From an uncultured Candidatus Poseidoniales archaeon (GTDB lineage: Archaea; Thermoplasmatota; Poseidoniia; Poseidoniales; Thalassarchaeaceae), in NCBI GenBank assembly GCA_902560445.1, contig CACELO010000004.1, positions 9,170 through 73,169 of the forward strand: a DNA stretch of 64,000 bases, given 5' to 3'. This document shows positions 24,681-62,018 of the stretch, one piece after another. Position 1 is the stretch's first letter. Each line of letters opens with the position of its first letter. The notes under the pieces were generated by a model that saw only the letters and a program-made list of their open reading frames with translations, ran no database searches and was not told the DNA's origin. The translations under genes and the position numbers were made by a program.

Positions 24681-24699
24681 CGACCACCATAGGTGGTCG
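24681..24699 (+). promoter_or_regulatory. Perfect 8-bp hairpin CGACCACC-ATA-GGTGGTCG between glyA and the M60-like gene; the 3' arm contains the GGTGG Shine-Dalgarno
   Basis: Inverted repeat read directly from the sequence. It lies 30 nt after the glyA stop and ends 5 nt before ATG 24705. Confidence 0.4.
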
Positions 24700-24704
24700 A
24701 ACAT

Positions 24705-46835: not shown

Positions 46836-49800
46836 ATGTCTTATGAAAACGGGAAAACGGGGGACGTCGGTCAGTACAATGGACTGGTTTCGACGCCAGC
46901 GGTGTTAGCAGGAATACTAATCTTATTTTTCGCTGCTACATCCCTCGCTGATGATGTGATGATTGACACAGGAAAGTTGGTTATCCTTCCCGTCGCAGCT
47001 GCATTAGCGGCTGTTATGGGAAGGTTTTGGGTATCTGCCCTTCCTGAAGATTCTCCGATAAATCGAAACTCGGTTTTCGTAATGTTGTTTGCAATCGTTC
47101 CGATAGCATTGGAATTCCTAGGATTCATTGACGCCATACTCGCAACCACTTTTGCATTCATGGCGATTTCAACATTAATTCTTGTCAAATCAAATAGAAA
47201 TGAGGAAGCGACCATTCTATTCACTATGGTCGCAGGATTCCATGTTTCTGTAGCCTACGCTGCGTCTATGCCGGAATTGACACTTTCAGAGGGAGATAAC
47301 CTACAGAATCTGCTTATCGACGTCCAAAGGGCCGGTATAGCGGCTAATTTCTTTTCCTTTTACGCTGCATCTTTGACGCTCGGTACCATTTTCGCTATTT
47401 CTTTCAGAGGATACCTGTATGATGGAGGAAATGGGTCTTTGTTTGAAAGGCTACCACAAAAAATTGATTTTTCAGAACACCGTGATTTACTGATCACTGC
47501 AGTTACCTTATTGATTGTGAACTTAATTCCACTTTGTTCACTGGCAAGTATTTCCAGTGCTGGTACCTTTGAGGAGCACCACTATCTTGGCGGTATTTGG
47601 GCTCTAGTTACTTCGATAGTAGTGATGTTTGTAGCCTTCTGTCGTGCTGAGAGATGGCATGTTCTCGGATCGATAGTTGCGGTAAATTGGCTAATCTACA
47701 CTTTAGCTCACTTGGTAGAGATAGGTGTCAGTCTCCCAGAACAATTGGAATTCCTTGCTGGGAACGATTTCGGTGGAGCATTCTCTTGGTTCTTCATCAC
47801 ATTCTGGTTGAATGTGCTAGGAATTATGCTTGCTTCTAGTGGAAGGTTTGGAGATATTGCTCCTCGCCGAGAACCTAGCCAGTTCCGTTTGTGGTGGAGT
47901 GATAATTCCTATTCAATTCTAGTTGGTTCCGCAGTTATTGTTGGCCTTTTAATCAGGACTGGTTGGAATGTGCTTCCTGCAATGAATGCGAATATAACCG
48001 GACTTTGGGATATGACTGGAGGTTCTGACCCTTGGTACATGAAGAGAGTAGTTGACTACATCGTAGCAGAGCATGCCCACTTCATTTTCGATGCAGATCG
48101 AGCGTATCCGAGTGGTGGAATTAATCCTCGCCCACCTCTATTTTCGTGGTGTTTAGCACTTGGTGGCCTCGCACTCGAGTGGTTAACAGGTATTACCGCC
48201 GACGAAGTCGTTTGGTGGTCAGTTGCAGGTCTGCCAGCAATCTTCGGAGCATTGATTGTTCTACCAGTTGCAGGTATTGCAAACCGTCTTCACAGTGCAC
48301 AAGCGGGGATATTTGCTGCTTGGCTTATGGCACTAATGCCTGGTCACATTAGTCACTCAACATTTGGTCTAGCCGACCACGATTCGTTTGCACTACTTTT
48401 CCTTACCTTAGCCTTCTACTTCTGGGTTAGAACATTAGGGGAAATTGGTAGTGAAAGAGTATTCCGTAACCCAAGTTCCAATCCATTGTACTTGGTTGCA
48501 GGGATTAGAGAGATGTGGAATCGTAATCCAGTAATGATGTCCTATGCAACACTAGCGGGTATCAGTTTCTCTACAGTTGCGCTTGGTTGGAAAGGATTCG
48601 TTTACGGACCTGGAATTCTATTCCTTGCTTTTGCTTTCCAAATCATCCTCAATATGTTCCGCCGACGTGACAGTCTACCTCTTACTTCGGCAGCTTTACA
48701 GATGATGTTTACAACCTTCCTAATTCCTCTCCCATTCTACATTTGGCCTGGTCTTAACTTACTTTGGGCACCTAGCGGATTCCAACCTATGTTCTACATT
48801 GTTGGATTTACAATTGCCTTAGGTTGGGTGGCATCTAGCTTCCGAGACAAACCTTGGCTGTTGGTGTTGGGTAGCGGTGGCATCTTATTTGGCGGCATTC
48901 TATCGGCATTGTGGATTCTACAAACCGCTGAATATTACGACGGTTGGGATATTCTATTCACAGGAGGATTTTATTTCTCAAAGAACAAGATTTTCGGAAC
49001 AATCGGAGAAGCTCAGGCACCGAGTAGAGGTGTACTATTCGCTTCCTTTGGCCCGATTGTTACATTGATTGCATTAGGTTATGCGTTCATCCTTCTATGG
49101 CGTGGGGCTCGAGAAGAAAAGCAAGGCTTGTCTCTTGTTGGTTTGTGGGTTCTAATCGCCTCCTACATGGCTTGGACCGCTGGAAGATTCATTCTCAATG
49201 CAACTCCAGCAATGGCCGTTGTTGGTGCAATAGGTATAGCTGCACTTTGGAAGAGGGCCGATTTCTCAGGCTTCACCAAAGAATGGCGCCGTGCAGGAAT
49301 TGGAACTCCAAGAGCCCGATTCCGTTCGGTTAGAACTACCAGTGTAAAGAAGCCGATGATTCCAGCCCTAGTGCTCGTTTTCATGCTAGTTGCAACTCAA
49401 CATGCAACATATGGTGTAGACTCGGGTATTCCGAGGGGTGAGACTGCATCCGGGGATGTCGATCAGGTGATTTACGATATTACTCCTGATGTAATGAGAT
49501 TCGATGTAGGAGGGCTATCGCTTCTGGATAGCAGTTCCTACAACCCAACTGCGAACTGTGGAAATGGTTGCTGGTACATGGGAACATTCGGTCCTGGATT
49601 CAACGGAGGGGGTTGGAATATGGCCTATGAGTGGCTTTCAGAACAAGATTCAGATGAGAAATTTGGTGAAAGACCTGCATTCGTCTCATGGTGGGATTAT
49701 GGATTCCAAGCTTTGGATTCCGGAGAACATCCTACCGTTGCTGACAACTTCCAGTCTGGAATCCCACATAGTGGAGGAATGTTACTATCTTCAGGTCAGG

Positions 49801-52800
49801 AAGACACTCTAGCGATGTTTATCACAACCCTCGCTCAGGGAGATAGGAAATATTCCGGTGATGGACAATTTGGTGACGATTTCACTGAAGTTATCCAGAA
49901 CCACCTATCTGCACAACAAATTCAGGAGTTCCAAGATATTCTATCGCTTGGCCCTGGACAAAAGCAATCCGTAATCGATCGTTCTTTGGTTCTAATCTAT
50001 CAAAACGTTCAGGAGATACAGGATTCTTCCTTTACAGCTGGAAATCTCAAAATTACCACAGATTTGATGCATGGTACTGTCCTTGATGAAAATGGACTTC
50101 CAACAGAACCAATGTGGTTTGTATTCAAAGATGGTGAGCAAGTAGGTAATGCTACGACAAATGAAACAGAGGCCAAGTCGATTTTCAATGAAGCACGCGG
50201 ATCTAGCCAACCCTATGAAGAGGAAACAACCCATTACGATATTGGCGGCTACAGATATACAGCTGACTTAATCGAGAGCTATGATGACGTTTCAACAAAC
50301 TTACATCGTTCAAATGCTAAGTTGGGTCTAGCAAGGGCTTTCCTAACTACTGCCCTTACTCTTGATGAATTAGTAGAAATGTACCATGACATCTCTACCC
50401 AAGTTGTGTATGAGGTTCAGGATTACGGAGGTAGTTTGGGAGAAACTATCGAACGAAATAACGAGATTCGCTACTTCGCAATAGACGATAGATTGTACCC
50501 ACTCGGTGGAGCTTATTATGCCGACCAAAGTTACCATAGAGGTCAAACTACAGGGATTTTCTACGCTCCAACCACCTTATCGGGCCTTGATCCCAATCAT
50601 TACATTGAATCGATTTACGAGACCCAGCGCGGTGATAGGCCGACAGTCTTCATGAGCGCTGAGCGCTATGAGCAGGAGTATATGTCTGATGTTGTCAAGC
50701 AACAATCTGGAGCAATGGAAGATTCCACAGATATGATTCAACTTGTTGATATACAATATCAGCAAACAGAATCTTTCTTTGAAACAATGGTTGCTAGAAT
50801 CTATGTTGGATACGGGACCTCAAGTTTGGGATTAACGGTTGATCCATCTCAACCTGGACCAACTTGGGCAATAAGCGGAACACCAGGTTCTCCACTAGAG
50901 AATGCCTTCCCTCTTCCAGGCGCTATGATGAATCATTTCGTAATAGCCAATTGGTACGATGACGGCTCAGATTCTCCTGATGAAGACAATAACAGTGTAC
51001 CGGATATTTTCGATGGTGGCTATGCCGCAATCGGCAGAGCTAATTCCAATGTTAAGGTTGTGAAATATTACAGTGGAGCTAACCTAGAAGGTACAGTTGA
51101 ATTGGATGGAATTGGTCCAGTTCCGAATGCTAGAATATTGATTGAAAGAGATGCCTTCAGTGGTGAAGAAGTCGCCGATGAGAATGGAACTGTGACCGAC
51201 CAAGATTCTCGGACCTATTGGGTTCCTATTGGCACTGTAGACGCAGATGAGAACGGAGATTATTCATTCACTGTTCCAGCAGGCAAGATTAGAGTTTCAG
51301 CCTTCTTTGGCGAACCTGATATCAGGGCTGCTCGGGATGAACTAACAAGCGGTTCTGGTGGTATGTTGCAAGACGTAGCCACAGAGTCAACAATTGGGGT
51401 TAGAAATGTCAACTTAATCACTGGAATACTGGGTAATGTTTCTGGATCTCAATGGCTATCAGAGACCATAATAAACGTCTCAGGGGAAGCGGGTCATTCC
51501 AATGGCCAAGCTCTGATTAATGCTGATATCACCGTAGAACCTTCATTCTCTACAGGCCGATTAGTTTGGAATGGGCAGGGCTCCTTTGATGGCGAAGCAA
51601 TTACCGATGCTGTTGTCGAGTTATCTCCTGCATGGGACCAAATTCAGATGCAACCGATTTTGCTCGAGACCTCTACAGGAAGTGTAAACGGACCTGACCT
51701 AGCTTTCCAAGGAATAGGCCAAGCGACATTTACCGGTGAAGGTGAAGTCATCAGTAATGGTTTGATGACAGTCACTGATTTCGTAGGTACACACAGGCAG
51801 ACCATTCTGAACGGACACAGTCTAGCCGGCTCCGGAGAGTTTACCGGGCGAGGGACGCTTTCCGGAGTAATTGACGGAGTGGATATTGTTGACGGAAATT
51901 GTAACGAAAATGGAACAATGCCAGAGAACTACTCAGTTTGTAGTCTACCTGATGGAGACTTCTTGATTGAGGGCGCAATTAACGCAACTGGACGATTTAC
52001 ATCCAATGGAACATCTTCATTCTCGCAAGAACACAACGGTTCATCTCTCACTGGCTCAGGTGTATTTACTATTGATGCTAGTAATGAGGAACTAGACACC
52101 TATGGGACCCTAAATGGTACAGGAACTTTCAGTGGAAAGGGTGAATTCAGCGGCCCTATGGTACAAGCTGGGACATTCCACTTAATCGATGCTATACCTG
52201 GAAATTACAACGTGGCAGTAGTATTCGATGACGATACTAGAATCGAAATTATTGATGGATTTAACGTTCCATATCAGGGTGTACCATCTCTTAATCAAAT
52301 CGATGTAGCGGGCGGAGTTATCTCCGGTACATTAACTGATGAGAATGGAAATTCTTTGTCGGGTTCTGTTACAATGGTCAAACTCGAATCTGAAAATGAC
52401 ACCACTATCGGGGAATGTAGCGAAGTCATGTTCGCACCATGTCGATTAACTGCAGATGAGAATGGTACCTTTGAGTTTGGACCAATCGTTCCAGGGGAGT
52501 ACCTCTTTGGGTTGGATATGGATGAAGATGGATTCAATGAGGTTGAATTGACCCATGAATTCGATGCTGATATGGACTCACAAGTTAACTTCCCAACTCC
52601 CATACCTACAGTATTTGATTTGAGATTCTCGTTAACTCAAATTGTTGATGGAATGCAAACATCTGTGGAGAATCTCGATAATTTGACTTTGGTCAAGAGT
52701 GATAATTCAGCAGCACCAGTTGTTGCCGTATTCGATAACATCAGTGGTGAATACTTGGCTGAACTATCACAGGGTCAGTGGATTCTCAGCCATGACTTGA

Positions 52801-55800
52801 GTAATTCTGAGCAATTATGGGAACAAATTGACCTTCAATCAGACATTTCTACTTCCTACGCCTTTAGAGAATCGATGAATGTAGTGGGAATTGTGTATTA
52901 TGATACTAATACAGCAGTCTCCAATTCCACAATTCAAGCAGAGGTTGTTGATTATACGCAGGTAATTTTCCATTGGGAGAATTTCACTACAAGCGAAACT
53001 ACAGATGCCAATGGTGTATTCAATGTCGTTTTGCCGATTGGTTCAGTTGTTGACGCCGCTGTATTTGGTAATGTTCTGAATGTAGTCAATGGTACACGAT
53101 TTACAGTCGAAGAGGGTATGGCCAATATCACGATGGTTGCACGCCCCGGACATGATGTTAGCGGTAGCCTAAATCTAAATCGATTAGGAAATTACTACAC
53201 ATCAAATCTAGACGGTTGGGAGCCTGTTACTGTATATGCAACGAATGAGCATGTCGATGCAGTGTGGCATATAGAAGTCACTCAGTTTGGGACTTTTGAC
53301 ACTATTTTACCTGAAGGTAACTGGACATTTACAATAGATCTAGATTGGCTGAATGCAAGTGAAGCAACTCTCATGGTTGATGGTGAAAATGATACATTAG
53401 AGATGTATCTCTACCCTGCACCTTCATTCCTTGAGATAGATTTCTTCTTGGATAATAGTGGTGACAATAACGTAGCTAATGGAACTCCTGTAGAGTACAA
53501 ATTCTCAGTTGTACCTCTTGAAAATGAAGCGGGATTAACGATAGATGTAGAAGAAGATGGTTCAGAGTGGATTTCAGATGGATTCGCAAGAGTTCCTCTA
53601 GAAGCGGGTTCATATCGAATAAATGTAGAAATTTCTAGCGCTCGCGCAGGAGATCTTTTTGGAACCCGAATTATGACCGGTGATGCCTACTTTGAGGTCG
53701 GTCTCGACGGTGAAGTAGTTAGCAGAAGTATTGGCTTTGATCCAGAATGGAAGGTAGATTTGACATTTACGAATGAAAGCGGTGGGCAACTAGTAGATCA
53801 ATTAGTTAGATTCATCGATCCGCAGAATAGTGGAGAAATTATCACTAGAAAGACCGATATGAATGGCACACTAATTGACCATCTTCCAGATGGTGAATGG
53901 ATTCTTGTGATCGATTCTATGGAAACAGATGCGGCGGTTACAGAAGGAGTTCGAACAACGATTATCGTATCAGAACAAACTGCTAACGATTCTCAAACGA
54001 TATCAACTAGCGAACTTGCATCATTCACTGTTAGAATTTCTGATGCTGATGGAGGTAATCTGCAAGATATGGAATTACAACTAATTTCCAATGATGGGTT
54101 AGGAACGGTATATCTTGACAACACTGATGAATCGGGACAAACCTCAGGAATCATATCTCCAGGTTCATGGAATATTGAATTAAATCAGACCGTGGATAGG
54201 ACTCGTTATGTCGTAGAGTCGCTTGAACTTCAGGATGGTGGTTTAGTCGCTGGTGAGAATGAATTAATCGATATCGTTACATCAACACACTATCAGTTGT
54301 CTGGGACGATATTCTGGGACCATGATGACGACGATGATGCAGACGTTGGAGAGGGTGTATCAGATGTTGAAATTCTGATGACAAGCGAAGGTCATGATAA
54401 TATTACTCAAATTACCGATGCCGCCGGTGATTGGAGTGTGTATATTCCTGCAGGTACAACTTGGCAAGTCTCTACATACAGAGAAGGGTTTGATCAAGAA
54501 ACTGAATCTATAGCGATGAACGCTCCTAACTCTGTAGAAATTGAACTTACAGCTGGATATGTGGACATATTTGGAAACGTAACGCACTCAGATTTGTCGA
54601 ATATTGGTGAGCAAGTAGAATTAATTTTGATTCCCACATCTGGTATGGTACGTGACCGAATAGTGCCTGATAAGGTATTCGAAGATGGAGTGTGGAACGG
54701 TCAATGGACTGCTTCAGTTGAACCTGGTCTTTGGATTATTCGAGCAACACTGGAAGCGTCTAATCTAGTAGGAATGGCAAGCATCGATGCAGACATTAGT
54801 GATGGTGGAAATGTAGACATCAATCTTGTGTATGGCGGGTGGCTGCATCTTTCTACTCAATGGCTAGACTTTAATGGAACTCAACATCATGCAACGGAAA
54901 CCGGGATAGAGGGTGCAGAGATTGTTGATGATGTGGAATTCATAATGTCCTCAGGAGCAGGAGTCCGATGGGATGCTTTGTTGACTGAAAACGGTGAAAT
55001 TTCAATTCTAATGCCAAGTGGAATGATTGAGGTCGAAGGTGGCTTCTCTGTTGACCAAATGGACCGTGTAATGGAATATACTGCAACCAAGTCAATTAGT
55101 GTACCAGGTTCAGGAACAGATATCACCGCCTCGGTTACCCAGGACTTATTGTTCGGCCGAATCGGTAACCACACAATAAGCGCTACAATAGTCTCAGTAA
55201 CTGGTGGAGAATTGACCCAAGAAGGGGAATTTAATGATGTCAAAGCCACACTAGGAGATGATGGCCAATACGGCTCAATAGAGTTTACAATGTCTCTTGA
55301 CTATCTTGGACATGAGTCGTTATCAAGTTACATCGTGTCAGGAAATGTTGTAGGTACCGATGGTCAATATTGGAACGTTGAAGTATGGGATGAGTCTATT
55401 GAAAATTGGACCACGCCTTTCGCCTTTGAATTCGGTTTAGATAGTAACAATAGCACAACCTATGACAATCTACTGCTTCGAATTACTCCTGCCAATCAAT
55501 CGACTGCTCAGTCACTTACCAATGGTCACAACGTAGATATCAAGTTCACTTCAACTGATGGCTATCAATTTGAACAGGAAGTAATTGTTAGGATTCCTCA
55601 ATTCCATAATTTCGAATTAAGGGAGCCAGTGTTGGATATTTACGGAATCCGTCCAGGTGAAGAGCTGTCTATCCCTCTATTATTCACAAATAGTGGAAAT
55701 GGTGATGAGAGATTTGAATTTGAATTCGATGACATTCAACTTCCACCAGATTGGCAAAGAACAGGTGCCACATCACATACCATAGGAGCTTTTACAGACA

Positions 55801-56372
55801 CAACTCATACTATCAAGATAATTTCACCTGAGAATGCAACAGGAAATGAGGATTTCATTATTACAATTTCCGTTACTGACAAGAATAATGGAACTTATCC
55901 TCCAATAGTGATTAGACTTAAGACATCTCTCCCTGTGCTTGAAATTAGCGTAATTGATGCCGTTAACGACCCATTATTCGGAACGATCCATACATTTACA
56001 GTAGAGGTGGAAAATTCTGGATTGGTGGATGCTGAGAAGGTTAAGTTGATTGGAACAGTTCGTGGAACGAATGTAAGCTCTAGCGTAACACAAGATGTGT
56101 TATCTGGAGATACGGTGAGATATCTCATAGACATAAACCTGACAGATTTCGATGGTCCATCCCAAGAATGGTTTGACTTTGAGATTGAAACTGAAGGACA
56201 AGAATTTGGCGAAGAACCGGAAACAGTAAGCAAGAGATACTCACTTAAGGCTCCAGGAGTGGATGATTCAACAGCAACCACGGTTATTGGTTTAGTTCTA
56301 GCATTAATCCTGCTGTTTGTTTTGTGGTACTTCACAAGATCTGGATCGAGAAGACCCGGTGCCCCATTCTGA
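46836..56372 (+). CDS. aglB: Giant fusion protein: extra polytopic membrane module + AglB/STT3 oligosaccharyltransferase core + about 2100-aa multi-beta-sandwich ectodomain + C-terminal TM anchor
   Basis: 3178-aa uninterrupted ORF. GGTGAT lies 8 nt upstream of the ATG. WWDYG is at 49689-49703 (aa 952-956), followed by HPTVADNFQSG. EL1-type GGSDPWYMKRVVDY and ADHDSF acidic motifs are present. Downstream are CarboxypepD_reg-like (LEGTVELDGIGPVPNARILIE, ISGTLTDENGNSLSGSVTMV) and CARDB-like repeats. C-terminal TM is VIGLVLALILLFVLWYF. Confidence 0.88.
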   Translation: MSYENGKTGDVGQYNGLVSTPAVLAGILILFFAATSLADDVMIDTGKLVILPVAAALAAVMGRFWVSALPEDSPINRNSVFVMLFAIVPIALEFLGFIDAILATTFAFMAISTLILVKSNRNEEATILFTMVAGFHVSVAYAASMPELTLSEGDNLQNLLIDVQRAGIAANFFSFYAASLTLGTIFAISFRGYLYDGGNGSLFERLPQKIDFSEHRDLLITAVTLLIVNLIPLCSLASISSAGTFEEHHYLGGIWALVTSIVVMFVAFCRAERWHVLGSIVAVNWLIYTLAHLVEIGVSLPEQLEFLAGNDFGGAFSWFFITFWLNVLGIMLASSGRFGDIAPRREPSQFRLWWSDNSYSILVGSAVIVGLLIRTGWNVLPAMNANITGLWDMTGGSDPWYMKRVVDYIVAEHAHFIFDADRAYPSGGINPRPPLFSWCLALGGLALEWLTGITADEVVWWSVAGLPAIFGALIVLPVAGIANRLHSAQAGIFAAWLMALMPGHISHSTFGLADHDSFALLFLTLAFYFWVRTLGEIGSERVFRNPSSNPLYLVAGIREMWNRNPVMMSYATLAGISFSTVALGWKGFVYGPGILFLAFAFQIILNMFRRRDSLPLTSAALQMMFTTFLIPLPFYIWPGLNLLWAPSGFQPMFYIVGFTIALGWVASSFRDKPWLLVLGSGGILFGGILSALWILQTAEYYDGWDILFTGGFYFSKNKIFGTIGEAQAPSRGVLFASFGPIVTLIALGYAFILLWRGAREEKQGLSLVGLWVLIASYMAWTAGRFILNATPAMAVVGAIGIAALWKRADFSGFTKEWRRAGIGTPRARFRSVRTTSVKKPMIPALVLVFMLVATQHATYGVDSGIPRGETASGDVDQVIYDITPDVMRFDVGGLSLLDSSSYNPTANCGNGCWYMGTFGPGFNGGGWNMAYEWLSEQDSDEKFGERPAFVSWWDYGFQALDSGEHPTVADNFQSGIPHSGGMLLSSGQEDTLAMFITTLAQGDRKYSGDGQFGDDFTEVIQNHLSAQQIQEFQDILSLGPGQKQSVIDRSLVLIYQNVQEIQDSSFTAGNLKITTDLMHGTVLDENGLPTEPMWFVFKDGEQVGNATTNETEAKSIFNEARGSSQPYEEETTHYDIGGYRYTADLIESYDDVSTNLHRSNAKLGLARAFLTTALTLDELVEMYHDISTQVVYEVQDYGGSLGETIERNNEIRYFAIDDRLYPLGGAYYADQSYHRGQTTGIFYAPTTLSGLDPNHYIESIYETQRGDRPTVFMSAERYEQEYMSDVVKQQSGAMEDSTDMIQLVDIQYQQTESFFETMVARIYVGYGTSSLGLTVDPSQPGPTWAISGTPGSPLENAFPLPGAMMNHFVIANWYDDGSDSPDEDNNSVPDIFDGGYAAIGRANSNVKVVKYYSGANLEGTVELDGIGPVPNARILIERDAFSGEEVADENGTVTDQDSRTYWVPIGTVDADENGDYSFTVPAGKIRVSAFFGEPDIRAARDELTSGSGGMLQDVATESTIGVRNVNLITGILGNVSGSQWLSETIINVSGEAGHSNGQALINADITVEPSFSTGRLVWNGQGSFDGEAITDAVVELSPAWDQIQMQPILLETSTGSVNGPDLAFQGIGQATFTGEGEVISNGLMTVTDFVGTHRQTILNGHSLAGSGEFTGRGTLSGVIDGVDIVDGNCNENGTMPENYSVCSLPDGDFLIEGAINATGRFTSNGTSSFSQEHNGSSLTGSGVFTIDASNEELDTYGTLNGTGTFSGKGEFSGPMVQAGTFHLIDAIPGNYNVAVVFDDDTRIEIIDGFNVPYQGVPSLNQIDVAGGVISGTLTDENGNSLSGSVTMVKLESENDTTIGECSEVMFAPCRLTADENGTFEFGPIVPGEYLFGLDMDEDGFNEVELTHEFDADMDSQVNFPTPIPTVFDLRFSLTQIVDGMQTSVENLDNLTLVKSDNSAAPVVAVFDNISGEYLAELSQGQWILSHDLSNSEQLWEQIDLQSDISTSYAFRESMNVVGIVYYDTNTAVSNSTIQAEVVDYTQVIFHWENFTTSETTDANGVFNVVLPIGSVVDAAVFGNVLNVVNGTRFTVEEGMANITMVARPGHDVSGSLNLNRLGNYYTSNLDGWEPVTVYATNEHVDAVWHIEVTQFGTFDTILPEGNWTFTIDLDWLNASEATLMVDGENDTLEMYLYPAPSFLEIDFFLDNSGDNNVANGTPVEYKFSVVPLENEAGLTIDVEEDGSEWISDGFARVPLEAGSYRINVEISSARAGDLFGTRIMTGDAYFEVGLDGEVVSRSIGFDPEWKVDLTFTNESGGQLVDQLVRFIDPQNSGEIITRKTDMNGTLIDHLPDGEWILVIDSMETDAAVTEGVRTTIIVSEQTANDSQTISTSELASFTVRISDADGGNLQDMELQLISNDGLGTVYLDNTDESGQTSGIISPGSWNIELNQTVDRTRYVVESLELQDGGLVAGENELIDIVTSTHYQLSGTIFWDHDDDDDADVGEGVSDVEILMTSEGHDNITQITDAAGDWSVYIPAGTTWQVSTYREGFDQETESIAMNAPNSVEIELTAGYVDIFGNVTHSDLSNIGEQVELILIPTSGMVRDRIVPDKVFEDGVWNGQWTASVEPGLWIIRATLEASNLVGMASIDADISDGGNVDINLVYGGWLHLSTQWLDFNGTQHHATETGIEGAEIVDDVEFIMSSGAGVRWDALLTENGEISILMPSGMIEVEGGFSVDQMDRVMEYTATKSISVPGSGTDITASVTQDLLFGRIGNHTISATIVSVTGGELTQEGEFNDVKATLGDDGQYGSIEFTMSLDYLGHESLSSYIVSGNVVGTDGQYWNVEVWDESIENWTTPFAFEFGLDSNNSTTYDNLLLRITPANQSTAQSLTNGHNVDIKFTSTDGYQFEQEVIVRIPQFHNFELREPVLDIYGIRPGEELSIPLLFTNSGNGDERFEFEFDDIQLPPDWQRTGATSHTIGAFTDTTHTIKIISPENATGNEDFIITISVTDKNNGTYPPIVIRLKTSLPVLEISVIDAVNDPLFGTIHTFTVEVENSGLVDAEKVKLIGTVRGTNVSSSVTQDVLSGDTVRYLIDINLTDFDGPSQEWFDFEIETEGQEFGEEPETVSKRYSLKAPGVDDSTATTVIGLVLALILLFVLWYFTRSGSRRPGAPF

Positions 56373-56456: not shown

Positions 56457-57695
56457 ATGACTCTTGAAGATCTTGAGTTAATGCCCGAACCAGAAGATAG
56501 TAGGTTGTTGACTGCTGTTGACCCCCAGGCTCCGGGATATCCTGGTTCTGAGTATGGATTATCCGATCAAGAAGCGAGAGAGCTACGTTGGCCATTAGGT
56601 CCGATGAAGGAGTTTCTATGGCCTTGGGGTGCTGCCAGCTTTGCAATAGGGGCAGTTCTATTGGTAATGACTTGGTCATCTATTCAACCATTGTTGGTAT
56701 CTTATCTACCAGACTCTGAGTGGGCATATCAGTCTTCAGGGATTAGGAAATTACAAGATCAGGGTTACTATGGAGACGGAGTTCATGTATGCATCGTAGA
56801 TACTGGAATTGATATTGCTCACCCCGATTTCAAAAATACAAATTTGGTCGGTTTTCGAGATTTCTACTCAGGAGACGACGGTAATATCCGAGATATTGGA
56901 GATGATTATCACGGTACGTTGATGGCTGGATTATTAATTGCAAATGGTACTTACGTAGGAGCGGCGCCAAGCGTTTCCCTCTCAGTGGCTTTGGCTCTTG
57001 GACCTGAAGGAGAAGCGGGTCAGTCGGATAGAGTTTCTTTGGCGATTCGATGGTGTAGGATTTCTCAAGATGTTGATATCATTAGTCTGAGTTTAGGTGG
57101 TGATCCAGGGGGCGGAATGAGCAATCTCCAATCTGAAACTGTCGAGGCGGTAAACGAGGCATTAGATGCTGGAATTTTTGTTGTAGCGGCGGCTGGCAAT
57201 AATGGCCAAAAGGCTAACATCAAAGATGTATCAATTCCAGCAAATATCCCAGGAGTTATTGCAGTGGGCGCCTCAAATATAGATGGTAGAATCTGGTCAA
57301 ATAGTTCAATGGGTTCCAACATGGATCCTTATTTCAATGAGGAAAGGCAATTTCCTAATCAGAAGCCAGAAGTTACCGCACCTGGAGTCAGATTGTTCTC
57401 TACTGCATCAACAGAAATCACACCGGCTTATGCCTATTCAACTGGAACCTCTGACTCAACTGTTATTGTTGTTGGAGCTCTCGCTTTGATTCTTCAAATT
57501 CAAGGGAACGAAATGCGAGGAGAAAATGGACAATTCGACTCACAAGAAATGAATTTGGTGAAGAGTGCTCTTGCAAACTCATCCTTAAAATCGCAAGATA
57601 TGGGTGCAATTCATTCAATCAAATCAGGCTACGGTGAATTGAATGCAGAGGCATGGTTAGAAGAGATAAGTATTGAGTTTAATCTTAGTGTATAA
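56457..57695 (+). CDS. Membrane-anchored subtilisin-like serine protease (S8 family)
   Basis: Catalytic triad contexts VCIVDTGIDIAHPDF (Asp), DDYHGTLMAGL (His) and STGTSDSTVIVVGA (Ser). Oxyanion AAAGNNG. N-terminal TM AASFAIGAVLLVMTW. Confidence 0.9.
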   Translation: MTLEDLELMPEPEDSRLLTAVDPQAPGYPGSEYGLSDQEARELRWPLGPMKEFLWPWGAASFAIGAVLLVMTWSSIQPLLVSYLPDSEWAYQSSGIRKLQDQGYYGDGVHVCIVDTGIDIAHPDFKNTNLVGFRDFYSGDDGNIRDIGDDYHGTLMAGLLIANGTYVGAAPSVSLSVALALGPEGEAGQSDRVSLAIRWCRISQDVDIISLSLGGDPGGGMSNLQSETVEAVNEALDAGIFVVAAAGNNGQKANIKDVSIPANIPGVIAVGASNIDGRIWSNSSMGSNMDPYFNEERQFPNQKPEVTAPGVRLFSTASTEITPAYAYSTGTSDSTVIVVGALALILQIQGNEMRGENGQFDSQEMNLVKSALANSSLKSQDMGAIHSIKSGYGELNAEAWLEEISIEFNLSV

Positions 57696-57737: not shown

Positions 57738-57779
57738 ATGAAACCCTATGATTAAATCACTTTGAGATTCCCCAATATC

Positions 57780-60700
57780 ATGATGAGTGCCCGAGCAAGA
57801 AGCGAGTTCCTGGTATTTCTAATGCTTACAAGCACAATGTTGGCCATGGTTGGCCCTGCACTTCCAGTCTCCGCAGACAATGAAACTACTAGTGGGACGA
57901 TTACCGGAATTGAGAGATGGAGTGGGAATCATCAACTCACAGGCGATGTTACAATCGCCGCTGGTGCAAAACTGATAATCGACCCTGGCACTGATATCTC
58001 ATTTCCAAACGGTACAATGTTAGATGTTCGTGGTAATCTATGTGCAGGAGTCGCATCCTGCGGTTCCAATGGCAATGCAGCATCAGGTAATCCAATCACT
58101 CTCACATGGGCAGAACCTGCGGTTCCGAATGCAACGGGAGAATGTTACGGATTGGGTAGTGGGGATTCACAAATAATGATTGAGGACCCCTCCTGTGGAG
58201 AAGGAGTAATTCTTCGAGATACCATGGACCTTTCACAATCAGGATTCAAGAGTATGCATTTTGAAGGCGCATGGGGAGTTCCATTCTATGTTCAATTAGA
58301 ATATGAATACAGATATGGGGTATTGGTTCTTGACGGAGCAAGCCCTACTCTTCGAGATATGAGATTTGAAGACATCAATACTTCCAGTGTACTTGCAGCG
58401 AATTTAGCTCAACCAACTTTCATCGGCGGCGAATATGTTGCTGGCAATGATGAAGAGAGCGGAGTCACAGGTCAGGCAGTGCAAATTTATGGAGGAGGTA
58501 CACCAATCTCACCGATGATTTTCCAGGATGCTACTTTCCAATCAACAAATAAGGGATGTGGAAATAGAGATGGAGGAAGGTCTGCTATTTGGGCCTCCCA
58601 GACATTTATTCAAGTCCAAAACTCTGATTTTGCCGGTGGTGATTTTGGAATTAGTATCCGGAATTCAGCTGGAAAGGTGACTAATTCTACCATTTCTGTC
58701 ACTTGCAATGGTATTGATGTGAATAGCCTAAAGGCAATTGGAAATACCGAATATGATGTTGAAATAGCAAATAATGTAATCACAACTACCCAACGTACTC
58801 CCATTACCGCCTATTCTGGAGCCGATGTGCGAATTCACAATAACGAACTAGCTGGAGCTGGACAAGGTTCTGGAATAGCAGTATATTCATCGAAAGCTGA
58901 AATACACAATAACGACATTGGGCCTATTGGTGGTTGGAATGGTCTATGGCTATTGGGAAGTTTTGATGTAATTGCTGAAAATAATTCAATTTCAGAAACC
59001 GGACAGGAACCGATACTTGCTGGAGAATATGGGACTCAAGCACCATCTCCTACACCTGCAAGACTTTACTTGGCTAACAATTCAATCTCGACTCAAGGTA
59101 GTGGTGAATGCTCATCGCAAAGGTGGTGGGGTGGTTCTTTCACTTGCCCAGCTATAATGGCGCACAGATCAGGAGCTACAATTGTTGACAATCAAATTAA
59201 TGCCGGTGGAAATGCTGATGGAATCAGGGCAACAGGAGCCATACTTGATGTCCAAAGAAATGTATTCAATGTTCAAGGAACCGGTGCTATATTGCAGCAT
59301 TATGATAGTGGCTTTGCAGATTCCCAACAATATGGGACACTGGCATTCTTTAGCAATAATGAATGGAATGGAGTTAGTGTAACCTACAATGTTTCTAAGT
59401 CTTCGGTTACAGTACAATCAGAATACATCCCAAGCCCTCCACCAGATGAACATCCTGTTTTACTTAGGTGGGCAGATCAAGAAGCTTGGGTACAGAATGG
59501 TTGGCAAAACGGAGTCATTCCACACGAAGTTAGGGCTTGTGATACCTGTGACGATTTCACCCCTTACAATTTCCCTTTAGCGATAAATATGGATAATAAT
59601 TCTACAGTGTTCACCTTCTCTAACCTTTCAAACTTGGATTTATCAAAGGTTAAAATTGATACACAACCGACAAAATATGCAGTTCAGGTACAAAGAGCTG
59701 AACTGGTAAGACTCCAAACTCTAGTGAACGGCCAACGAGTAGAAAATGCAAACGTATTGATTGAGGACGCGCTTGGGAATGACCTCTACAGTCTTGAAAC
59801 TGACTCGGATGGCTATACGCCATGGTTCTCTCTTGCTTCTAATTTCCACCTTGATTTCAGAGGTTTAGCGGGAGGAGATAACCCCGATGGTTTTGCAGAC
59901 GATGAATTCGAAGATTCCTGTTCAGATGGAGAGGATAATGACGGTGATTTACTACTTGATACTGATGATCCTGACTGCGATTACTCTGCTGGAACTAGAG
60001 AATTATCTCTCTACAGATACACTGCGTATAAATTTGGATATGGTATAGATAGTGGGGAGTTTACACTTTCAGATACCACATACCAAGATACTCTGTTTTT
60101 ACATAATGATCCGCCCAGTGTTTCTGTGATTCAAAATGATGGAGAGTCTTTCAGAAGAGTAGTCAATCTGACAGGTTCTGCCTATGACGGTACATGGGCA
60201 GGAATTTACGAAACCGACGAGTTAGCCCAGTGGGATCAGAAAGGTTTTGTTCATGCTGTAGAAGTCAAAGATCCATTTACAAGTGACTGGGCTACAGCTG
60301 GATACGCTACAGACTCTAGTGGTGCGGAACCAGGTTACGTGTCAAGAAATAATCATCCATTCAGTAGTTGGTACTATGAGTATGACATGTCAGGTAGACA
60401 GGAAGGAGACTATACATTCGAATTTAGGGCATTTGATGGTCTAGAGTATTCTCCTATTTTAACTCGGACGATTAAGGTCAACACAGAGGCTCCAACTATC
60501 TCCGTAACTTCCCCGAGCACTCAATCGACTCACTCAGATGGTACTGTGACATTCGAAGGAACCGCTCATGACCCGTATGGATGTCCTATTGATTGTGGAA
60601 CAGATATTGACCAGATATATTTCCAAATCGAAGGCCCGAACTACAACGTAATAACTTCGACAGAAGGCGGCATTGAGTGGTCTTGGACTTGGGATTTTAG

Positions 60701-62018
60701 TGGCCTTCCACGTGAATTAGCTACATACACATTTACTATTTGGGCCTCAGATACTGATTTCTGTAAGGGAGACATTGATGAATGTCAACCCGTGGTTATA
60801 GATCTTCAAATTGATAACCAAAACTCTCGCCCATTTGTAAGTCTAACCTCACCTCAGAACGCACAGATATATGCTGTTGATGAGAAATCAATTATCAGCG
60901 GAGTTGCTAGAGATAATGATGGAGATATTACTCGTGTTGATGTGGAGGTATTCGACGTCTCAAATGGATTTTTGAATGTCTTCACAGGTGCTGTCACGGA
61001 AATTGAATCAAATGGTTATTGGGAAATGGAATGGGATTCAAGAATATTAACTCACAACATGCAATATCTAATCAAAGTAAGGTCCTATGACGGCTATGAG
61101 TACAGCGATTGGATGGAAGTTCAGGTCGTCGCAGATAACCCGCCAGATGCAGATAATAATAGGCCCACATTTGACTCAACTAACTGGCAAACGGAGATTA
61201 CTCTTTTCTGCGAATTCGATACAACTTCGCAAAACCCTTGCACAAAGGCGGAGATTGATTTACTAGAGTTCTTTGATGATTTAGATGGAGTAAATTCTCT
61301 CATTCTATCTGTGTACGATGATGCAGCAAAATCATCTGATGATGAGTTTGGATTAGTGATTAACATAGGTGTTGACGGAGTCGCGTTTTATGATCCTAAG
61401 GCGATGGGCTTCTACAATGAGGACATGGATACATGGTCTTTGAGTAATGTGATATTTGTTGCCACTGATCCCTTTGGTTCAAAGGAGATTTCTACACCTG
61501 TATCTTTCAATGTAGTTCCAATCGAATTCTATGTTGGCCCGCCAAATCAAAACACTGCAAACGAAGAAGAATTGATCATCTTCGGTGGTTCTGGATTGCC
61601 TGGAAAGACCGTTAGAGTAACATTGGGTGGTATTCAAGTCAATTCTACTGTAGTACTTGATGATTCAACATGGGAACTTGGAATTCCGGGAGCCATGCTA
61701 AGTAAGCCAGTAATACCTGTATTTTCTATTAGTGGTTCAGAATCCATTCAGGGGCAAGAAATTTCCCCACCATCTAGTGAGGGAGGAATCAGCCCTGTGA
61801 TGATTATTGCTATTGTTGTAGTTATTATCGCATTATTGGCAGCTACACTTTTCTTTACTGGAGTAGTAACCTTCGAGGAAGATGATGATGAATCCAATAA
61901 ATCAGAAGGAGCCGATAAAAAGGCAGAACATCTAGTAAAAAGCGATGACCACCCTGGTTGGCTTTGGGACGCTGAAAAAGAAGAATGGGTGCCAGATCCC
62001 GACCATATTGGTGAGTGA
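57780..62018 (+). CDS. Giant surface protein: right-handed parallel beta-helix (PbH1/NosD-like) region + Ig-like domains + C-terminal TM + acidic, Trp-rich cytoplasmic tail
   Basis: The ORF track start at TTG 57762 is replaced by ATG 57780 (MMSARARSEFLVFLMLTSTMLAMVGPALPVSA signal). Beta-helix rungs: VQNSDFAGGDFGISIRNSAGKVTNSTISV, IANNVITTT, RIHNNELAG, EIHNNDIG, AENNSIS, IVDNQIN. Cys/Asp-rich CSDGEDNDGDLLLDTDDPDC. TM IIAIVVVIIALLAATLFFTGVV. Confidence 0.7.
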   Translation: MMSARARSEFLVFLMLTSTMLAMVGPALPVSADNETTSGTITGIERWSGNHQLTGDVTIAAGAKLIIDPGTDISFPNGTMLDVRGNLCAGVASCGSNGNAASGNPITLTWAEPAVPNATGECYGLGSGDSQIMIEDPSCGEGVILRDTMDLSQSGFKSMHFEGAWGVPFYVQLEYEYRYGVLVLDGASPTLRDMRFEDINTSSVLAANLAQPTFIGGEYVAGNDEESGVTGQAVQIYGGGTPISPMIFQDATFQSTNKGCGNRDGGRSAIWASQTFIQVQNSDFAGGDFGISIRNSAGKVTNSTISVTCNGIDVNSLKAIGNTEYDVEIANNVITTTQRTPITAYSGADVRIHNNELAGAGQGSGIAVYSSKAEIHNNDIGPIGGWNGLWLLGSFDVIAENNSISETGQEPILAGEYGTQAPSPTPARLYLANNSISTQGSGECSSQRWWGGSFTCPAIMAHRSGATIVDNQINAGGNADGIRATGAILDVQRNVFNVQGTGAILQHYDSGFADSQQYGTLAFFSNNEWNGVSVTYNVSKSSVTVQSEYIPSPPPDEHPVLLRWADQEAWVQNGWQNGVIPHEVRACDTCDDFTPYNFPLAINMDNNSTVFTFSNLSNLDLSKVKIDTQPTKYAVQVQRAELVRLQTLVNGQRVENANVLIEDALGNDLYSLETDSDGYTPWFSLASNFHLDFRGLAGGDNPDGFADDEFEDSCSDGEDNDGDLLLDTDDPDCDYSAGTRELSLYRYTAYKFGYGIDSGEFTLSDTTYQDTLFLHNDPPSVSVIQNDGESFRRVVNLTGSAYDGTWAGIYETDELAQWDQKGFVHAVEVKDPFTSDWATAGYATDSSGAEPGYVSRNNHPFSSWYYEYDMSGRQEGDYTFEFRAFDGLEYSPILTRTIKVNTEAPTISVTSPSTQSTHSDGTVTFEGTAHDPYGCPIDCGTDIDQIYFQIEGPNYNVITSTEGGIEWSWTWDFSGLPRELATYTFTIWASDTDFCKGDIDECQPVVIDLQIDNQNSRPFVSLTSPQNAQIYAVDEKSIISGVARDNDGDITRVDVEVFDVSNGFLNVFTGAVTEIESNGYWEMEWDSRILTHNMQYLIKVRSYDGYEYSDWMEVQVVADNPPDADNNRPTFDSTNWQTEITLFCEFDTTSQNPCTKAEIDLLEFFDDLDGVNSLILSVYDDAAKSSDDEFGLVINIGVDGVAFYDPKAMGFYNEDMDTWSLSNVIFVATDPFGSKEISTPVSFNVVPIEFYVGPPNQNTANEEELIIFGGSGLPGKTVRVTLGGIQVNSTVVLDDSTWELGIPGAMLSKPVIPVFSISGSESIQGQEISPPSSEGGISPVMIIAIVVVIIALLAATLFFTGVVTFEEDDDESNKSEGADKKAEHLVKSDDHPGWLWDAEKEEWVPDPDHIGE

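What the first reader, a model, noticed from the sequence alone, without database searches (positions are those of the whole stretch)
46836..56372. 3178-aa AglB: oligosaccharyltransferase fused to an extra membrane module and an S-layer or adhesin-sized ectodomain
The catalytic WWDYG motif sits at aa 952-956 (49689-49703). The first STT3-type TM and the EL1 loop (SDPWYMKRVVDY) begin only at about aa 355. So about 350 aa containing roughly 8 additional TM helices precede the canonical core. After the core come about 2100 aa of repeated beta-sandwich domains (CarboxypepD_reg-like, then CARDB-like) and a second membrane anchor at the extreme C-terminus. From general knowledge, characterised AglB/STT3/PglB enzymes are roughly 600-1000 aa. 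This architecture covalently couples the N-glycosylation enzyme to a wall or adhesin-like scaffold. Possible meanings are a self-glycosylating envelope protein or an OST positioned within the surface layer.
Basis: partly seen in the sequence, partly recalled or inferred. Interest (0 to 1): 0.7.

Follow-up and report, generated by a model that had tools for sequence, protein, structure and literature searches.

The report
Giant double-anchored archaeal N-glycosylation enzyme
The abundant ocean archaea called Marine Group II make their protein-glycosylating enzyme as one conserved 3,178-residue chain, in which the enzyme core sits between an unknown ten-helix membrane block and a long sugar-coated surface stalk pinned back into the membrane, and I found no paper describing this layout.

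Summary
Window 46836-56372 (+) is one intact 3,178-aa ORF with WWDYG at aa 952-956. It is not an assembly artefact. Its 90% cluster has 453 public members. About 48 related genomes carry intact ORFs of 3,145-3,320 aa, including single-cell and long-read assemblies. Ten further full-length representatives (3,146-3,228 aa, 33-62% identical) align collinearly end to end. dN/dS is 0.02-0.17 in every module.

Anatomy:
- A 10-helix N-terminal module (aa 1-352). AlphaFold pLDDT is 87. It has no Pfam, PDB-sequence or Foldseek match, and it occurs only at the N-terminus of this family.
- A 13-TM STT3/AglB core with D398, D514-H-D516, TIGE722-725 and WWDYG intact.
- The enzyme's own outer domain, to about aa 1400.
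- About 1,750 aa of transthyretin/CnaB-like beta-sandwiches, twofold enriched in N-X-S/T sequons.
- A C-terminal TM helix with a basic tail ending in Phe.

The organism is an MGIIb Poseidoniales archaeon (UBA126). Methanomassiliicoccales/Thermoplasmata relatives have STT3 plus beta-sandwich AglBs of up to 2,166 aa, so the N-module and the extreme length are what is specific to Poseidoniales. The most likely reading is a working oligosaccharyltransferase whose glycosylated ectodomain forms part of the cell surface coat. Whether it forms an S-layer or acts as an adhesin is unproven. It is a new variant of a known kind.

The parts
46836..56372 (+). Whole gene: 3,178-aa giant AglB/STT3 with 24 predicted TM helices; the stop codon is at 56370-56372.
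   Evidence: ORF list and translation. The 90% cluster has 453 members, many exactly 3,178 aa. About 48 related genomes carry intact ORFs of 3,145-3,320 aa.
46836..47891 (+). N-terminal module, aa 1-352: 10 TM helices at aa 10-37, 46-68, 75-94, 100-118, 122-143, 157-190, 216-237, 253-271, 275-295 and 312-334. An Arg-rich cytoplasmic linker follows. E123, E272, W274 and E295 are conserved.
   Evidence: AlphaFold2 on a 28-sequence alignment gave pLDDT 87.1 and pTM 0.84. There is no Pfam or PDB sequence hit and no Foldseek PDB hit (best E about 1, TM <= 0.25). A profile search of 1.84 billion representative proteins found it only at the N-terminus of 3,146-3,228-aa proteins or in fragments. It is not a duplicate of the STT3 TM domain (hhalign probability 0.3%).
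47892..49394 (+). STT3/AglB membrane domain, aa 353-853, with 13 TM helices. It carries the EL1 acid D398 (nt 48027-48029), D514-H-D516 (nt 48375-48383) and the EL5 TIGE motif at aa 722-725 (nt 48999-49010).
   Evidence: Pfam PF02516 E=1.2e-15 and TIGR04154 over aa 362-986. phmmer against A. fulgidus AglB-L (3waj) gave E=4.5e-11 and aligned GGSDPWY with GGNDPWY and LADHD with FNDHH. Hydropathy plus the positive-inside pattern gives 13 TM helices. This is the most conserved block of the protein, at 55-74% identity.
49395..51035 (+). The enzyme's own extracellular catalytic and peripheral domain, aa 854-1400. WWDYG is at aa 952-956 (nt 49689-49703). A variable insert lies at about aa 1000-1150, and a conserved block at aa 1200-1250 (IRYFAIDDRLYPLGG...GIFYAPT).
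   Evidence: Motif position. Conservation profile. Homology to Methanomassiliicoccales-type AglB extends to q1497. Sequons are not enriched here.
51036..56276 (+). Add-on ectodomain, aa 1401-3147: an array of transthyretin/CnaB/Ig-like beta-sandwich domains. It is very acidic (16% D+E, 3.5% K+R) and rich in N-X-S/T sequons.
   Evidence: CarboxypepD_reg scores 37.6 bits (cut-off 32.3) and is found in 18 of 18 relatives. AlphaFold2 of aa 1380-2579 is all-beta with pLDDT 82.6. Foldseek matches B. anthracis TIE, Gram-positive pilins, the SdrD and Cna B repeats, alpha-2-macroglobulin MG domains and SlaB, with E from 1e-12 to 1e-6. Sequon enrichment and 13 conserved sequon columns. Omega is 0.06-0.17.
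51681..52151 (+). Gly-rich GxGxF sub-region, aa 1616-1772, predicted as unusually long beta strands of 20-42 residues. An invariant Cys pair sits at aa 1689 and 1702. This is the most conserved part of the add-on ectodomain.
   Evidence: DSSP of the model shows strands at model positions 237-278, 283-301, 330-344, 348-367 and 378-393. Invariant columns C310 and C323 of the segment. Conservation.
55932..56099 (+). Possible CARDB/E-set-like domain near the membrane, aa 3033-3088. Support is weak.
   Evidence: Pfam CARDB E=0.0044, 17.6 bits, below the 22.7 cut-off. NCBIfam choice_anch_T 18.5 bits. NPCBM_assoc matches in 3 of 18 relatives.
56277..56369 (+). C-terminal anchor: TM helix at aa 3148-3166 plus the basic cytoplasmic tail TRSGSRRPGAPF, ending in a family-invariant Phe. 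It is not a PGF-CTERM signal.
   Evidence: Hydropathy. The C-termini of 11 representatives and about 48 loci all end in a basic cluster plus (P/R)F. True PGF-CTERM-like tails occur on other proteins in the window.

Best explanation
This gene is the AglB, the archaeal N-oligosaccharyltransferase, of Poseidoniales (Marine Group II; this window is MGIIb genome UBA126). I expect it to be catalytically active. The 13-TM STT3 core binds the lipid-linked glycan and a divalent cation through D398, D514/D516 and E725. With the WWDYG pocket it transfers the glycan to Asn in N-X-S/T on the outer face of the membrane. This step is inferred from motif conservation.

Two lineage-specific additions are fused to the core in one polypeptide. 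The first is a cytoplasm-in, 10-helix membrane module of unknown fold. I infer that it acts as an accessory membrane subunit, for example in handling the lipid carrier or in docking. The second is an acidic array of about 1,750 aa of beta-sandwich domains. It leaves the catalytic domain, extends from the cell, and returns to a C-terminal TM helix, so the chain is pinned at both ends. The ectodomain carries conserved sequons. It is therefore probably a major N-glycoprotein itself, glycosylated in cis or by neighbouring copies, and a structural component of the cell's glycoprotein coat rather than a variable adhesin.

Shown here: gene integrity, domain anatomy, conservation, purifying selection, motif integrity and sequon enrichment. 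Inferred: enzyme activity, topology, glycosylation of the ectodomain and its envelope role.
For: - Integrity and conservation.
- All modules are under purifying selection, omega 0.02-0.17.
- STT3 membership and catalytic residues aligned to the solved AfAglB-L structure.
- A coherent 10+13+1 TM topology, with basic loops inside and acidic loops outside.
- Beta-sandwich stalk fold.
- Sequons: 36 observed against 17.4 +/- 3.6 expected, with 0 of 5,000 shuffles reaching 36. Control motifs are not enriched. Thirteen sequon positions are shared by at least 6 of 11 divergent orthologues. The catalytic domain is not enriched.
- Conserved synteny CarS-PurD-AglB-S8 protease-beta-helix surface protein in 57-72 of 83 loci.
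- An 'oligosaccharyltransferase' gene of an MGIIb genus-O1 MAG is reported as enriched in field metatranscriptomes (PMC9723583). The paper does not give the gene's sequence or length, and I did not check that it is this orthologue.
Against: - There is no biochemical or proteomic evidence.
- The Ser/Thr-pocket DK/MI motif could not be identified by sequence.
- The protein scores only 152 bits against the 450-bit cut-off of TIGR04154.
- I could not test whether these genomes also carry a second, ordinary AglB.
- Nothing indicates what the N-module does.
- Sequon enrichment is also seen, more weakly, in one other surface protein of the window (21 against 13.5), so it marks surface glycoproteins in general.
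- The ectodomain could serve the enzyme rather than the envelope.
Confidence: 0.6

Rival explanations
1. The ectodomain and N-module are built-in accessory subunits of the enzyme, functionally analogous to the non-catalytic subunits of the eukaryotic OST complex. Ribophorins and OST48 have lumenal beta-sandwich domains with C-terminal TM anchors. On this view, the C-terminal helix packs back against the TM core and the stalk forms a canopy. The canopy captures or holds unfolded secreted substrates, or spaces the active site from the coat. It is not itself envelope material.
For: - The domain order, the length (3,146-3,320 aa) and the C-terminal tail are invariant, and omega is low. This is what is expected of a machine part.
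- The regions next to the catalytic domain (aa 1400-1500 and 1750-1800) are the most conserved parts of the ectodomain.
- The N-module and the (P/R)F-ended tail co-occur only in Poseidoniales.
Against: - Foldseek and sequence searches find no similarity between the N-module and any OST subunit in the PDB, which includes the yeast and human OST complexes.
- About 1,750 aa is far more than a canopy needs.
- Heavy, conserved sequons fit a displayed glycoprotein.
- Packing of the C-terminal helix against the core could not be modelled.
Confidence: 0.15
2. The ectodomain is an adhesin. It tethers the cell to particles, algal surfaces or polymers, and the fusion to AglB merely ensures co-expression and glycosylation.
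For: The best fold matches are Gram-positive pilins and adhesin stalks such as SpaC, RrgB, SdrD and Cna B repeats. The window and its neighbourhood encode many large surface proteins: beta-helix, TSP3-repeat and M60 peptidase proteins.
Against: - No recognisable ligand-binding tip domain was found.
- Both ends are in the membrane, so there is no free distal tip.
- The length is fixed and orthology is one-to-one across the order under purifying selection, unlike typical repeat-variable adhesins.
Confidence: 0.12
3. The ORF is a polyprotein precursor. The conserved S8 subtilase gene immediately downstream cleaves it after translocation. This releases a separate C-terminally anchored surface glycoprotein from an ordinary-sized AglB.
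For: An S8 protease gene lies directly downstream in 58 of 83 loci, including MGIIa-type contigs. A variable, gap-rich linker exists at aa 1050-1100 and 1350-1400.
Against: - There is no evidence of cleavage, and no conserved cleavage motif was looked for or found.
- The S8 protein has no obvious signal peptide at its annotated start.
- The Methanomassiliicoccales-type locus has the fused ectodomain without an adjacent S8 gene.
Confidence: 0.08
4. The ORF is an assembly or annotation artefact, for example a chimeric join, a read-through of separate genes, or a pseudogene.
For: In two polished long-read contigs (L001, L002) the orthologue is broken into 3-5 ORFs. L033 and L042 are truncated.
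Against: - In L002 the housekeeping gene purD is also split, which points to indel errors in those assemblies.
- The pieces sum to about 3,170-3,180 aa and are collinear with the window protein.
- About 48 independent genomes have the intact ORF, including single-cell genomes AG-313-L18 and AG-422-I18 and long-read MAGs LRMED-021 and LRMED-022.
- The 90% cluster has 453 members.
- Omega is well below 1 in every module.
Confidence: 0.02

Closest known systems
Archaeal AglB / STT3 / PglB oligosaccharyltransferases (GT-C fold, CAZy GT66; solved examples include A. fulgidus AglB-L, PDB 3WAJ/5GMY)
   Same: The 13-TM domain, the EL1 acidic residue in GG(S/N)DPWY, the D-x-D/H motif, the EL5 TIxE motif and WWDYG in an extracellular C-terminal domain are all shared. 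Pfam PF02516 is above threshold, and phmmer against 3WAJ gives E=4.5e-11.
   Different: The protein is 3,178 aa, against about 600-1,050 aa for characterised enzymes (general knowledge). It has 10 extra TM helices in front, about 1,750 aa of beta-sandwich domains behind, and a second membrane anchor. The DK/MI motif was not recognised.
Uncharacterised STT3 + CarboxypepD_reg proteins of Methanomassiliicoccales and other Thermoplasmata (P0033, 2,123 aa; P0142, 2,166 aa; P0208-P0245)
   Same: These have an STT3 core about 32% identical to the window protein. Their homology extends through the catalytic domain into the first CarboxypepD_reg domain. They have a long beta-sandwich ectodomain and, in P0033, their own C-terminal TM helix plus basic tail. 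purD and a beta-helix giant gene lie nearby.
   Different: They lack the N-terminal 10-TM module: STT3 starts at residue about 25. They are about 1,000 aa shorter. The tail ends in RRKR rather than a basic cluster plus (P/R)F.
Non-catalytic subunits of the eukaryotic OST complex (ribophorin I/Ost1, OST48/Wbp1, ribophorin II/Swp1), and NOMO-type rods of transthyretin-like domains
   Same: This is an analogy only. Beta-sandwich domains lie on the non-cytoplasmic side and are held by C-terminal TM helices next to STT3. The total TM count (24) is similar to yeast OST (28, general knowledge). Weak Pfam NOMO-domain hits occur in 4 of 18 relatives.
   Different: No sequence or fold similarity to any OST subunit was detected. 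Here everything is one polypeptide.
Gram-positive surface stalks built from CnaB/prealbumin-like domains (SdrD B repeats, pilins, B. anthracis TIE) and the archaeal S-layer stalk protein SlaB
   Same: Foldseek matches the tandem beta-sandwich array with E from 1e-12 to 1e-6.
   Different: There is no sortase or PGF-CTERM signal, no isopeptide motifs were examined, TM-scores are low (multi-domain alignments), and both ends are membrane-embedded.

Membership tests
STT3/AglB oligosaccharyltransferase (PF02516, GT66) | Significant match to the STT3 family model | tested here: met
   PF02516 scores 58.4 bits against a cut-off of 24.5, E=1.2e-15, over aa 383-610. It matches in 17 of 18 relatives.
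STT3/AglB oligosaccharyltransferase (PF02516, GT66) | 13-TM membrane domain with the C-terminal domain outside | tested here: met
   Hydropathy plus the positive-inside pattern gives 13 helices between aa 357 and 853, with EL1, DHD and EL5 outside. The region is aligned to AfAglB-L TM1-TM8. This is a prediction only.
STT3/AglB oligosaccharyltransferase (PF02516, GT66) | Catalytic acidic residues: the EL1 Asp, the D-x-D/H motif and the EL5 TIxE Glu | tested here: met
   D398 lies in GGSDPWY and D514-H-D516 in LADHD, both aligned to the equivalent AfAglB-L motifs. TIGE is at aa 722-725, in the 74%-identical block.
STT3/AglB oligosaccharyltransferase (PF02516, GT66) | WWDYG motif in the extracellular domain | tested here: met
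   It is at aa 952-956 and is nearly invariant in the family.
STT3/AglB oligosaccharyltransferase (PF02516, GT66) | DK or MI motif completing the Ser/Thr pocket | tested here: inconclusive
   A conserved block, IRYFAIDDRLYPLGG...GQTTGIFYAPT (aa about 1195-1235), is in the expected place, but no D-x-x-K or M-x-x-I could be assigned by eye.
STT3/AglB oligosaccharyltransferase (PF02516, GT66) | Transfers a lipid-linked glycan to Asn of N-X-S/T | not testable with these tools
   This needs biochemistry.
TIGR04154 archaeosortase-A-associated STT3 subfamily | Score above the curated subfamily cut-off | tested here: not met
   It scores 152.3 bits against a cut-off of 450. It is the best NCBIfam match, but the protein is not a member.
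PGF-CTERM / archaeosortase A substrates | A PGF motif directly before the C-terminal TM helix and basic tail | tested here: not met
   The C-terminus reads ...KAPGVDDSTATT-TM-TRSGSRRPGAPF. Other family members have no PGF either. Genuine PGF-like tails are present on two other proteins of the window.
CarboxypepD_reg / transthyretin-like beta-sandwich domain (PF13620) | Match above the gathering score, and the fold | tested here: met
   The whole protein scores 31.5 bits, just below the 32.3 cut-off. The 1,200-aa segment scores 37.6 bits, and 18 of 18 relatives match, with a best E of 1e-20. The model is all-beta and Foldseek hits CnaB and MG-type domains.
CARDB domain (PF07705) | Match above the gathering score | tested here: not met
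   It scores 17.6 bits against a cut-off of 22.7, E=0.0044, at aa about 3033-3088.
Archaeal S-layer glycoproteins | Homology to a known S-layer family, or lattice formation | tested here: inconclusive
   There is no S-layer Pfam or NCBIfam hit. There is only a generic beta-sandwich Foldseek hit to SlaB (E=5.6e-6). Lattice formation is not testable here.

The most novel reading that the evidence does not exclude
The protein is a self-contained, single-chain 'holo-OST'. The unique 10-TM module would perform a membrane step that is a separate protein elsewhere, such as flipping or recycling the lipid-linked glycan carrier, or docking to the Sec translocon. The C-terminal helix and its invariant basic, Phe-ended tail would fold back onto that module. 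The glycosylated stalk that the enzyme decorates on itself would be the main building block of the Marine Group II cell coat. In other words, the envelope would be made of the glycosylation enzyme.
Probability: 0.12. Interest if true: 0.85.

Novelty: new variant of a known kind. Interest (0 to 1): 0.62.

Why it matters
Poseidoniales are among the most abundant archaea of the surface ocean, and they are uncultured. Their cell envelope is essentially unknown. If the order's AglB is a 24-TM, 340-kDa protein that carries its own heavily glycosylated stalk, then several things follow.

- It is a strong candidate for a major surface antigen, virus receptor or envelope component of these cells.
- It is a natural experiment in fusing an OST to accessory membrane and ectodomain parts, which eukaryotes solved with separate subunits.
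- It contains a confidently predicted 10-helix membrane domain with no known relative, whose function could reveal a missing step of archaeal N-glycosylation.
- It gives metaproteomics and cryo-ET a precise target.
- The gene is already deposited many times as 'STT3 domain-containing protein' or 'hypothetical protein'. I found no paper describing it.

Tried and rejected
- N-module identity. I ran Pfam on 13 members, a PDB profile search, hhalign against the STT3 TM domain, hhalign against itself, and Foldseek against the PDB. None gave a hit. A duplicated STT3 half, an internal repeat and a known transporter or GT-C fold are therefore all unsupported.
- Stand-alone N-module genes. The only near-complete short hit, P0052 (359 aa), ends in the adaptor-derived peptide LLYTSPSPRD, so it is a truncated contig and not a separate gene. 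Other short hits end in adaptor or frameshift debris.
- Fragmented orthologues in L001 and L002. I rejected these as evidence for separate genes, because purD is split too and the pieces are collinear with the window protein.
- The 256-aa CARDB gene after the Methanomassiliicoccales-type AglB. It is not homologous to the window's C-terminus (best E=2.1), and P0033 has its own TM anchor. There is therefore no evidence for a fission or fusion there.
- PGF-CTERM sorting of the C-terminus. I rejected this on sequence.
- dS was saturated for orthologues below about 90% identity, so only close pairs were used.
- Literature searches for AglB or oligosaccharyltransferase together with Marine Group II, Poseidoniales or Thermoplasmatota found no description of this architecture.
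Full report
**1. Observation**

Window 46836-56372 (+) is a single ATG-initiated ORF of 3,178 codons with no internal stop. WWDYG is at aa 952-956, nt 49689-49703, and SDPWY is at aa 397. Pfam STT3 (PF02516) matches aa 383-610 with 58.4 bits against a cut-off of 24.5. NCBIfam TIGR04154 (archaeal STT3) aligns to aa 362-986 but scores only 152 bits against its cut-off of 450.

**2. The gene is real**

The window comes from MAG UBA126 (DAMG01000079.1, 100% identity). This is an MGIIb / Thalassarchaeaceae genus-O1 archaeon of the order Poseidoniales.
- 424 stretches in GTDB species-representative genomes encode a relative of the core.
- Among the best 80 loci, about 48 contain the whole gene, and in those the ORF is intact at 3,145-3,320 aa. 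Examples are single-cell genomes AG-313-L18 (3,168 aa) and AG-422-I18 (3,294 aa), and long-read MAGs LRMED-022 (3,199 aa on a 1.6-Mb contig) and LRMED-021 (3,177 aa).
- The protein's 90% cluster has 453 members, many of exactly 3,178 aa, from independent assemblies.
- Ten further full-length representatives (3,146-3,228 aa) are 33-62% identical to the window protein. They align collinearly with few gaps over the whole length.
- In two polished long-read contigs the orthologue is split into 3-5 ORFs. In one of them purD is split as well, and the pieces are collinear and sum to about 3,170-3,180 aa, so these are indel errors.
- Pairwise dN/dS against close orthologues is 0.09-0.15 for the N-module, 0.02-0.04 for the STT3 membrane domain, 0.03-0.04 for the catalytic outer domain and 0.06-0.17 for the rest.

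A chimera or pseudogene is excluded.

**3. The N-terminal module**

AlphaFold2 on a 28-sequence alignment predicts ten TM helices in aa 1-352, with pLDDT 87 and pTM 0.84. Acidic loops alternate with Arg/Lys-rich loops, and the module ends in an Arg-rich linker (aa 335-360). The N-terminus is therefore cytoplasmic, and the even helix count preserves the normal in-to-out orientation of STT3 TM1. E123, E272, W274 and E295 are invariant in 13 diverse members.

The module has no Pfam or PDB sequence match. It has no Foldseek match in the PDB: the best E is about 1 and TM-scores are at most 0.25. It is not related to the STT3 TM domain or to itself.

A profile search of 1.84 billion representative proteins found only 100 hits. 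Every complete one is a 3,146-3,228-aa protein carrying the module at its N-terminus. The rest are fragments, several of which end in adaptor-derived peptides. The module is thus a Poseidoniales-specific, always-fused domain of unknown function.

**4. The core**

Alignment to the solved A. fulgidus AglB-L (3WAJ, E=4.5e-11) pairs GGSDPWY with GGNDPWY (D398) and LADHD with FNDHH (D514, D516). The EL5 motif TIGE (aa 722-725) lies in the most conserved block. Hydropathy and charge distribution give 13 TM helices between aa 357 and 853, with EL1, DHD and EL5 outside.

The outer domain carries WWDYG and a conserved block at aa 1200-1250. I could not assign the DK/MI motif. Homology to Methanomassiliicoccales-type AglBs continues to about aa 1497. 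The enzyme's own outer domain therefore ends near aa 1400, followed by a conserved first CarboxypepD_reg-like domain at aa about 1410-1500.

**5. The ectodomain and second anchor**

CarboxypepD_reg (PF13620) is sub-threshold on the whole protein. It is above threshold on the 1,200-aa segment (37.6 bits) and is present in all 18 relatives scanned.

AlphaFold2 of aa 1380-2579 gives an all-beta chain with pLDDT 82.6. Foldseek hits tandem CnaB/prealbumin/MG-type stalks: B. anthracis TIE, pilins, SdrD, Cna B repeats, alpha-2-macroglobulins and SlaB. One Gly-rich stretch (aa 1616-1772) is predicted as strands of up to 42 residues and contains an invariant Cys pair. This is unexplained.

Support for CARDB near the C-terminus is weak. 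The chain ends in a TM helix (aa 3148-3166) and a basic tail. In all family members the tail ends in (P/R)F. This is not a PGF-CTERM signal, although such signals occur on other proteins of the window. In total there are 24 TM helices, and about 2,290 aa lie outside the cell between TM23 and TM24.

**6. Glycosylation of the ectodomain**

The region aa 1501-3138 has 36 N-X-S/T sequons against 17.4 +/- 3.6 in shuffles, and 0 of 5,000 shuffles reach 36. Reversed and Asp-substituted control motifs are not enriched. All 11 representatives show 30-64 sequons observed against 13-24 expected, whereas the catalytic domain is at or below expectation. Thirteen sequon positions are shared by at least 6 of 11 divergent proteins, and three of them (N1547, N2215, N2450) by all 11. 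The ectodomain is very acidic. This fits a displayed N-glycoprotein.

**7. Context and relatives**

The gene order CarS, PurD, AglB, S8 subtilase, beta-helix giant protein is conserved in most loci. No other N-glycosylation genes lie nearby; the window is mostly housekeeping genes plus several large surface proteins.

The nearest other family is found in Methanomassiliicoccales and other Thermoplasmata. These are STT3 plus CarboxypepD_reg proteins of up to 2,166 aa. At least P0033 has its own C-terminal TM anchor, but none has the N-module. Long beta-sandwich tails on AglB are therefore a class-wide but undescribed trait. Poseidoniales added the 10-TM module, about 1,000 more residues and the Phe-ended tail.

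**8. Interpretation**

The best reading is an active AglB whose fused, glycosylated, doubly anchored stalk contributes to the cell coat. The N-module would be an accessory membrane part of unknown role.

The rivals are that the additions serve the enzyme itself, that the stalk is an adhesin, or that the chain is a precursor cut by the neighbouring S8 protease. None can be excluded without experiments. The fixed length, one-to-one orthology and purifying selection argue against a variable adhesin.

Literature searches found no description of this architecture. One paper reports an 'oligosaccharyltransferase' gene of an MGIIb-O1 MAG as enriched in field metatranscriptomes (PMC9723583). It does not give the gene's sequence or length, and I did not check that it is this orthologue.

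**9. Verdict**

This is a new variant of a known enzyme family, with one genuinely unknown domain. Interest is moderate to high, because the organisms are globally abundant and their envelope is unknown.

Noticed in passing
window 34177-36963 (-): A 928-aa protein with a TM segment at each end matches Pfam CD36 (PF01130) above threshold, at 34.3 bits against a 26.5 cut-off. CD36 is a eukaryote-type lipid scavenger-receptor family, which is unexpected in an archaeon thought to feed on lipids.
   Followed up: no
window 17777-20416 (-) and 20449-23262 (-): Two adjacent surface proteins of about 900 aa carry bacterial TSP3 repeats and end in PGF-CTERM-like tails (LPGFGLL...ARRD and TPGFGLV...GRRRQ). 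The organism therefore probably has an archaeosortase system, which the giant AglB does not use.
   Followed up: partly
window 24693-28706 (+): A 1,337-aa secreted M60/enhancin-like peptidase with He_PIG Ig domains, a possible glycoprotein- or mucin-degrading enzyme. Its sequons are mildly enriched, 21 against 13.5 expected.
   Followed up: no
window 31044-34091 (-) and 9343-11148 (+): A 1,015-aa protein combines lamin-tail domains with two PLD-like domains, and a 601-aa protein carries EF-hands. Both are unusual domain sets for an archaeon.
   Followed up: no
window 56334-56369 (aa 3167-3178), and the C-termini of P0036-P0054 and L004-L082: Every full-length family member ends in a basic cluster followed by a C-terminal Phe (...RRPGAPF...SRF...KPF). 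The Methanomassiliicoccales-type AglB ends in ...SRRKR. This may be a lineage-specific interaction or sorting signal that co-occurs with the N-module.
   Followed up: partly
window 51681-52151 (aa 1616-1772): A Gly-rich GxGxF region is predicted with high confidence as beta strands of 20-42 residues, around an invariant Cys1689/Cys1702 pair. It is unlike the surrounding beta-sandwiches and is the most conserved part of the add-on ectodomain.
   Followed up: partly
window 56457-57695 (+) and 57762-62018 (+): An S8 subtilase without an obvious signal peptide and a 1,418-aa beta-helix/Big_7 protein follow the AglB gene. They do so in most Poseidoniales loci, including distant MGIIa-type contigs.
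   Followed up: partly
L001 (ERZ28548091) and L002 (ERZ28548099); database proteins P0052, P0070, P0044, P0045, P0057: Pilon-polished long-read contigs carry frameshifts that fragment this gene, and purD as well. Several short database 'proteins' end in sequencing-adaptor translations (LLYTSPSPRD, SLIHI, VSYTHLTLPT). Both can mimic split or stand-alone genes.
   Followed up: yes
L083 12372-13142 (JGI 3300040736): In the Methanomassiliicoccales-type locus, a separate 256-aa CARDB protein with a signal peptide and its own TM anchor starts at the stop codon of the 2,123-aa AglB. purD and a NosD/beta-helix giant gene lie nearby, echoing the Poseidoniales neighbourhood.
   Followed up: partly
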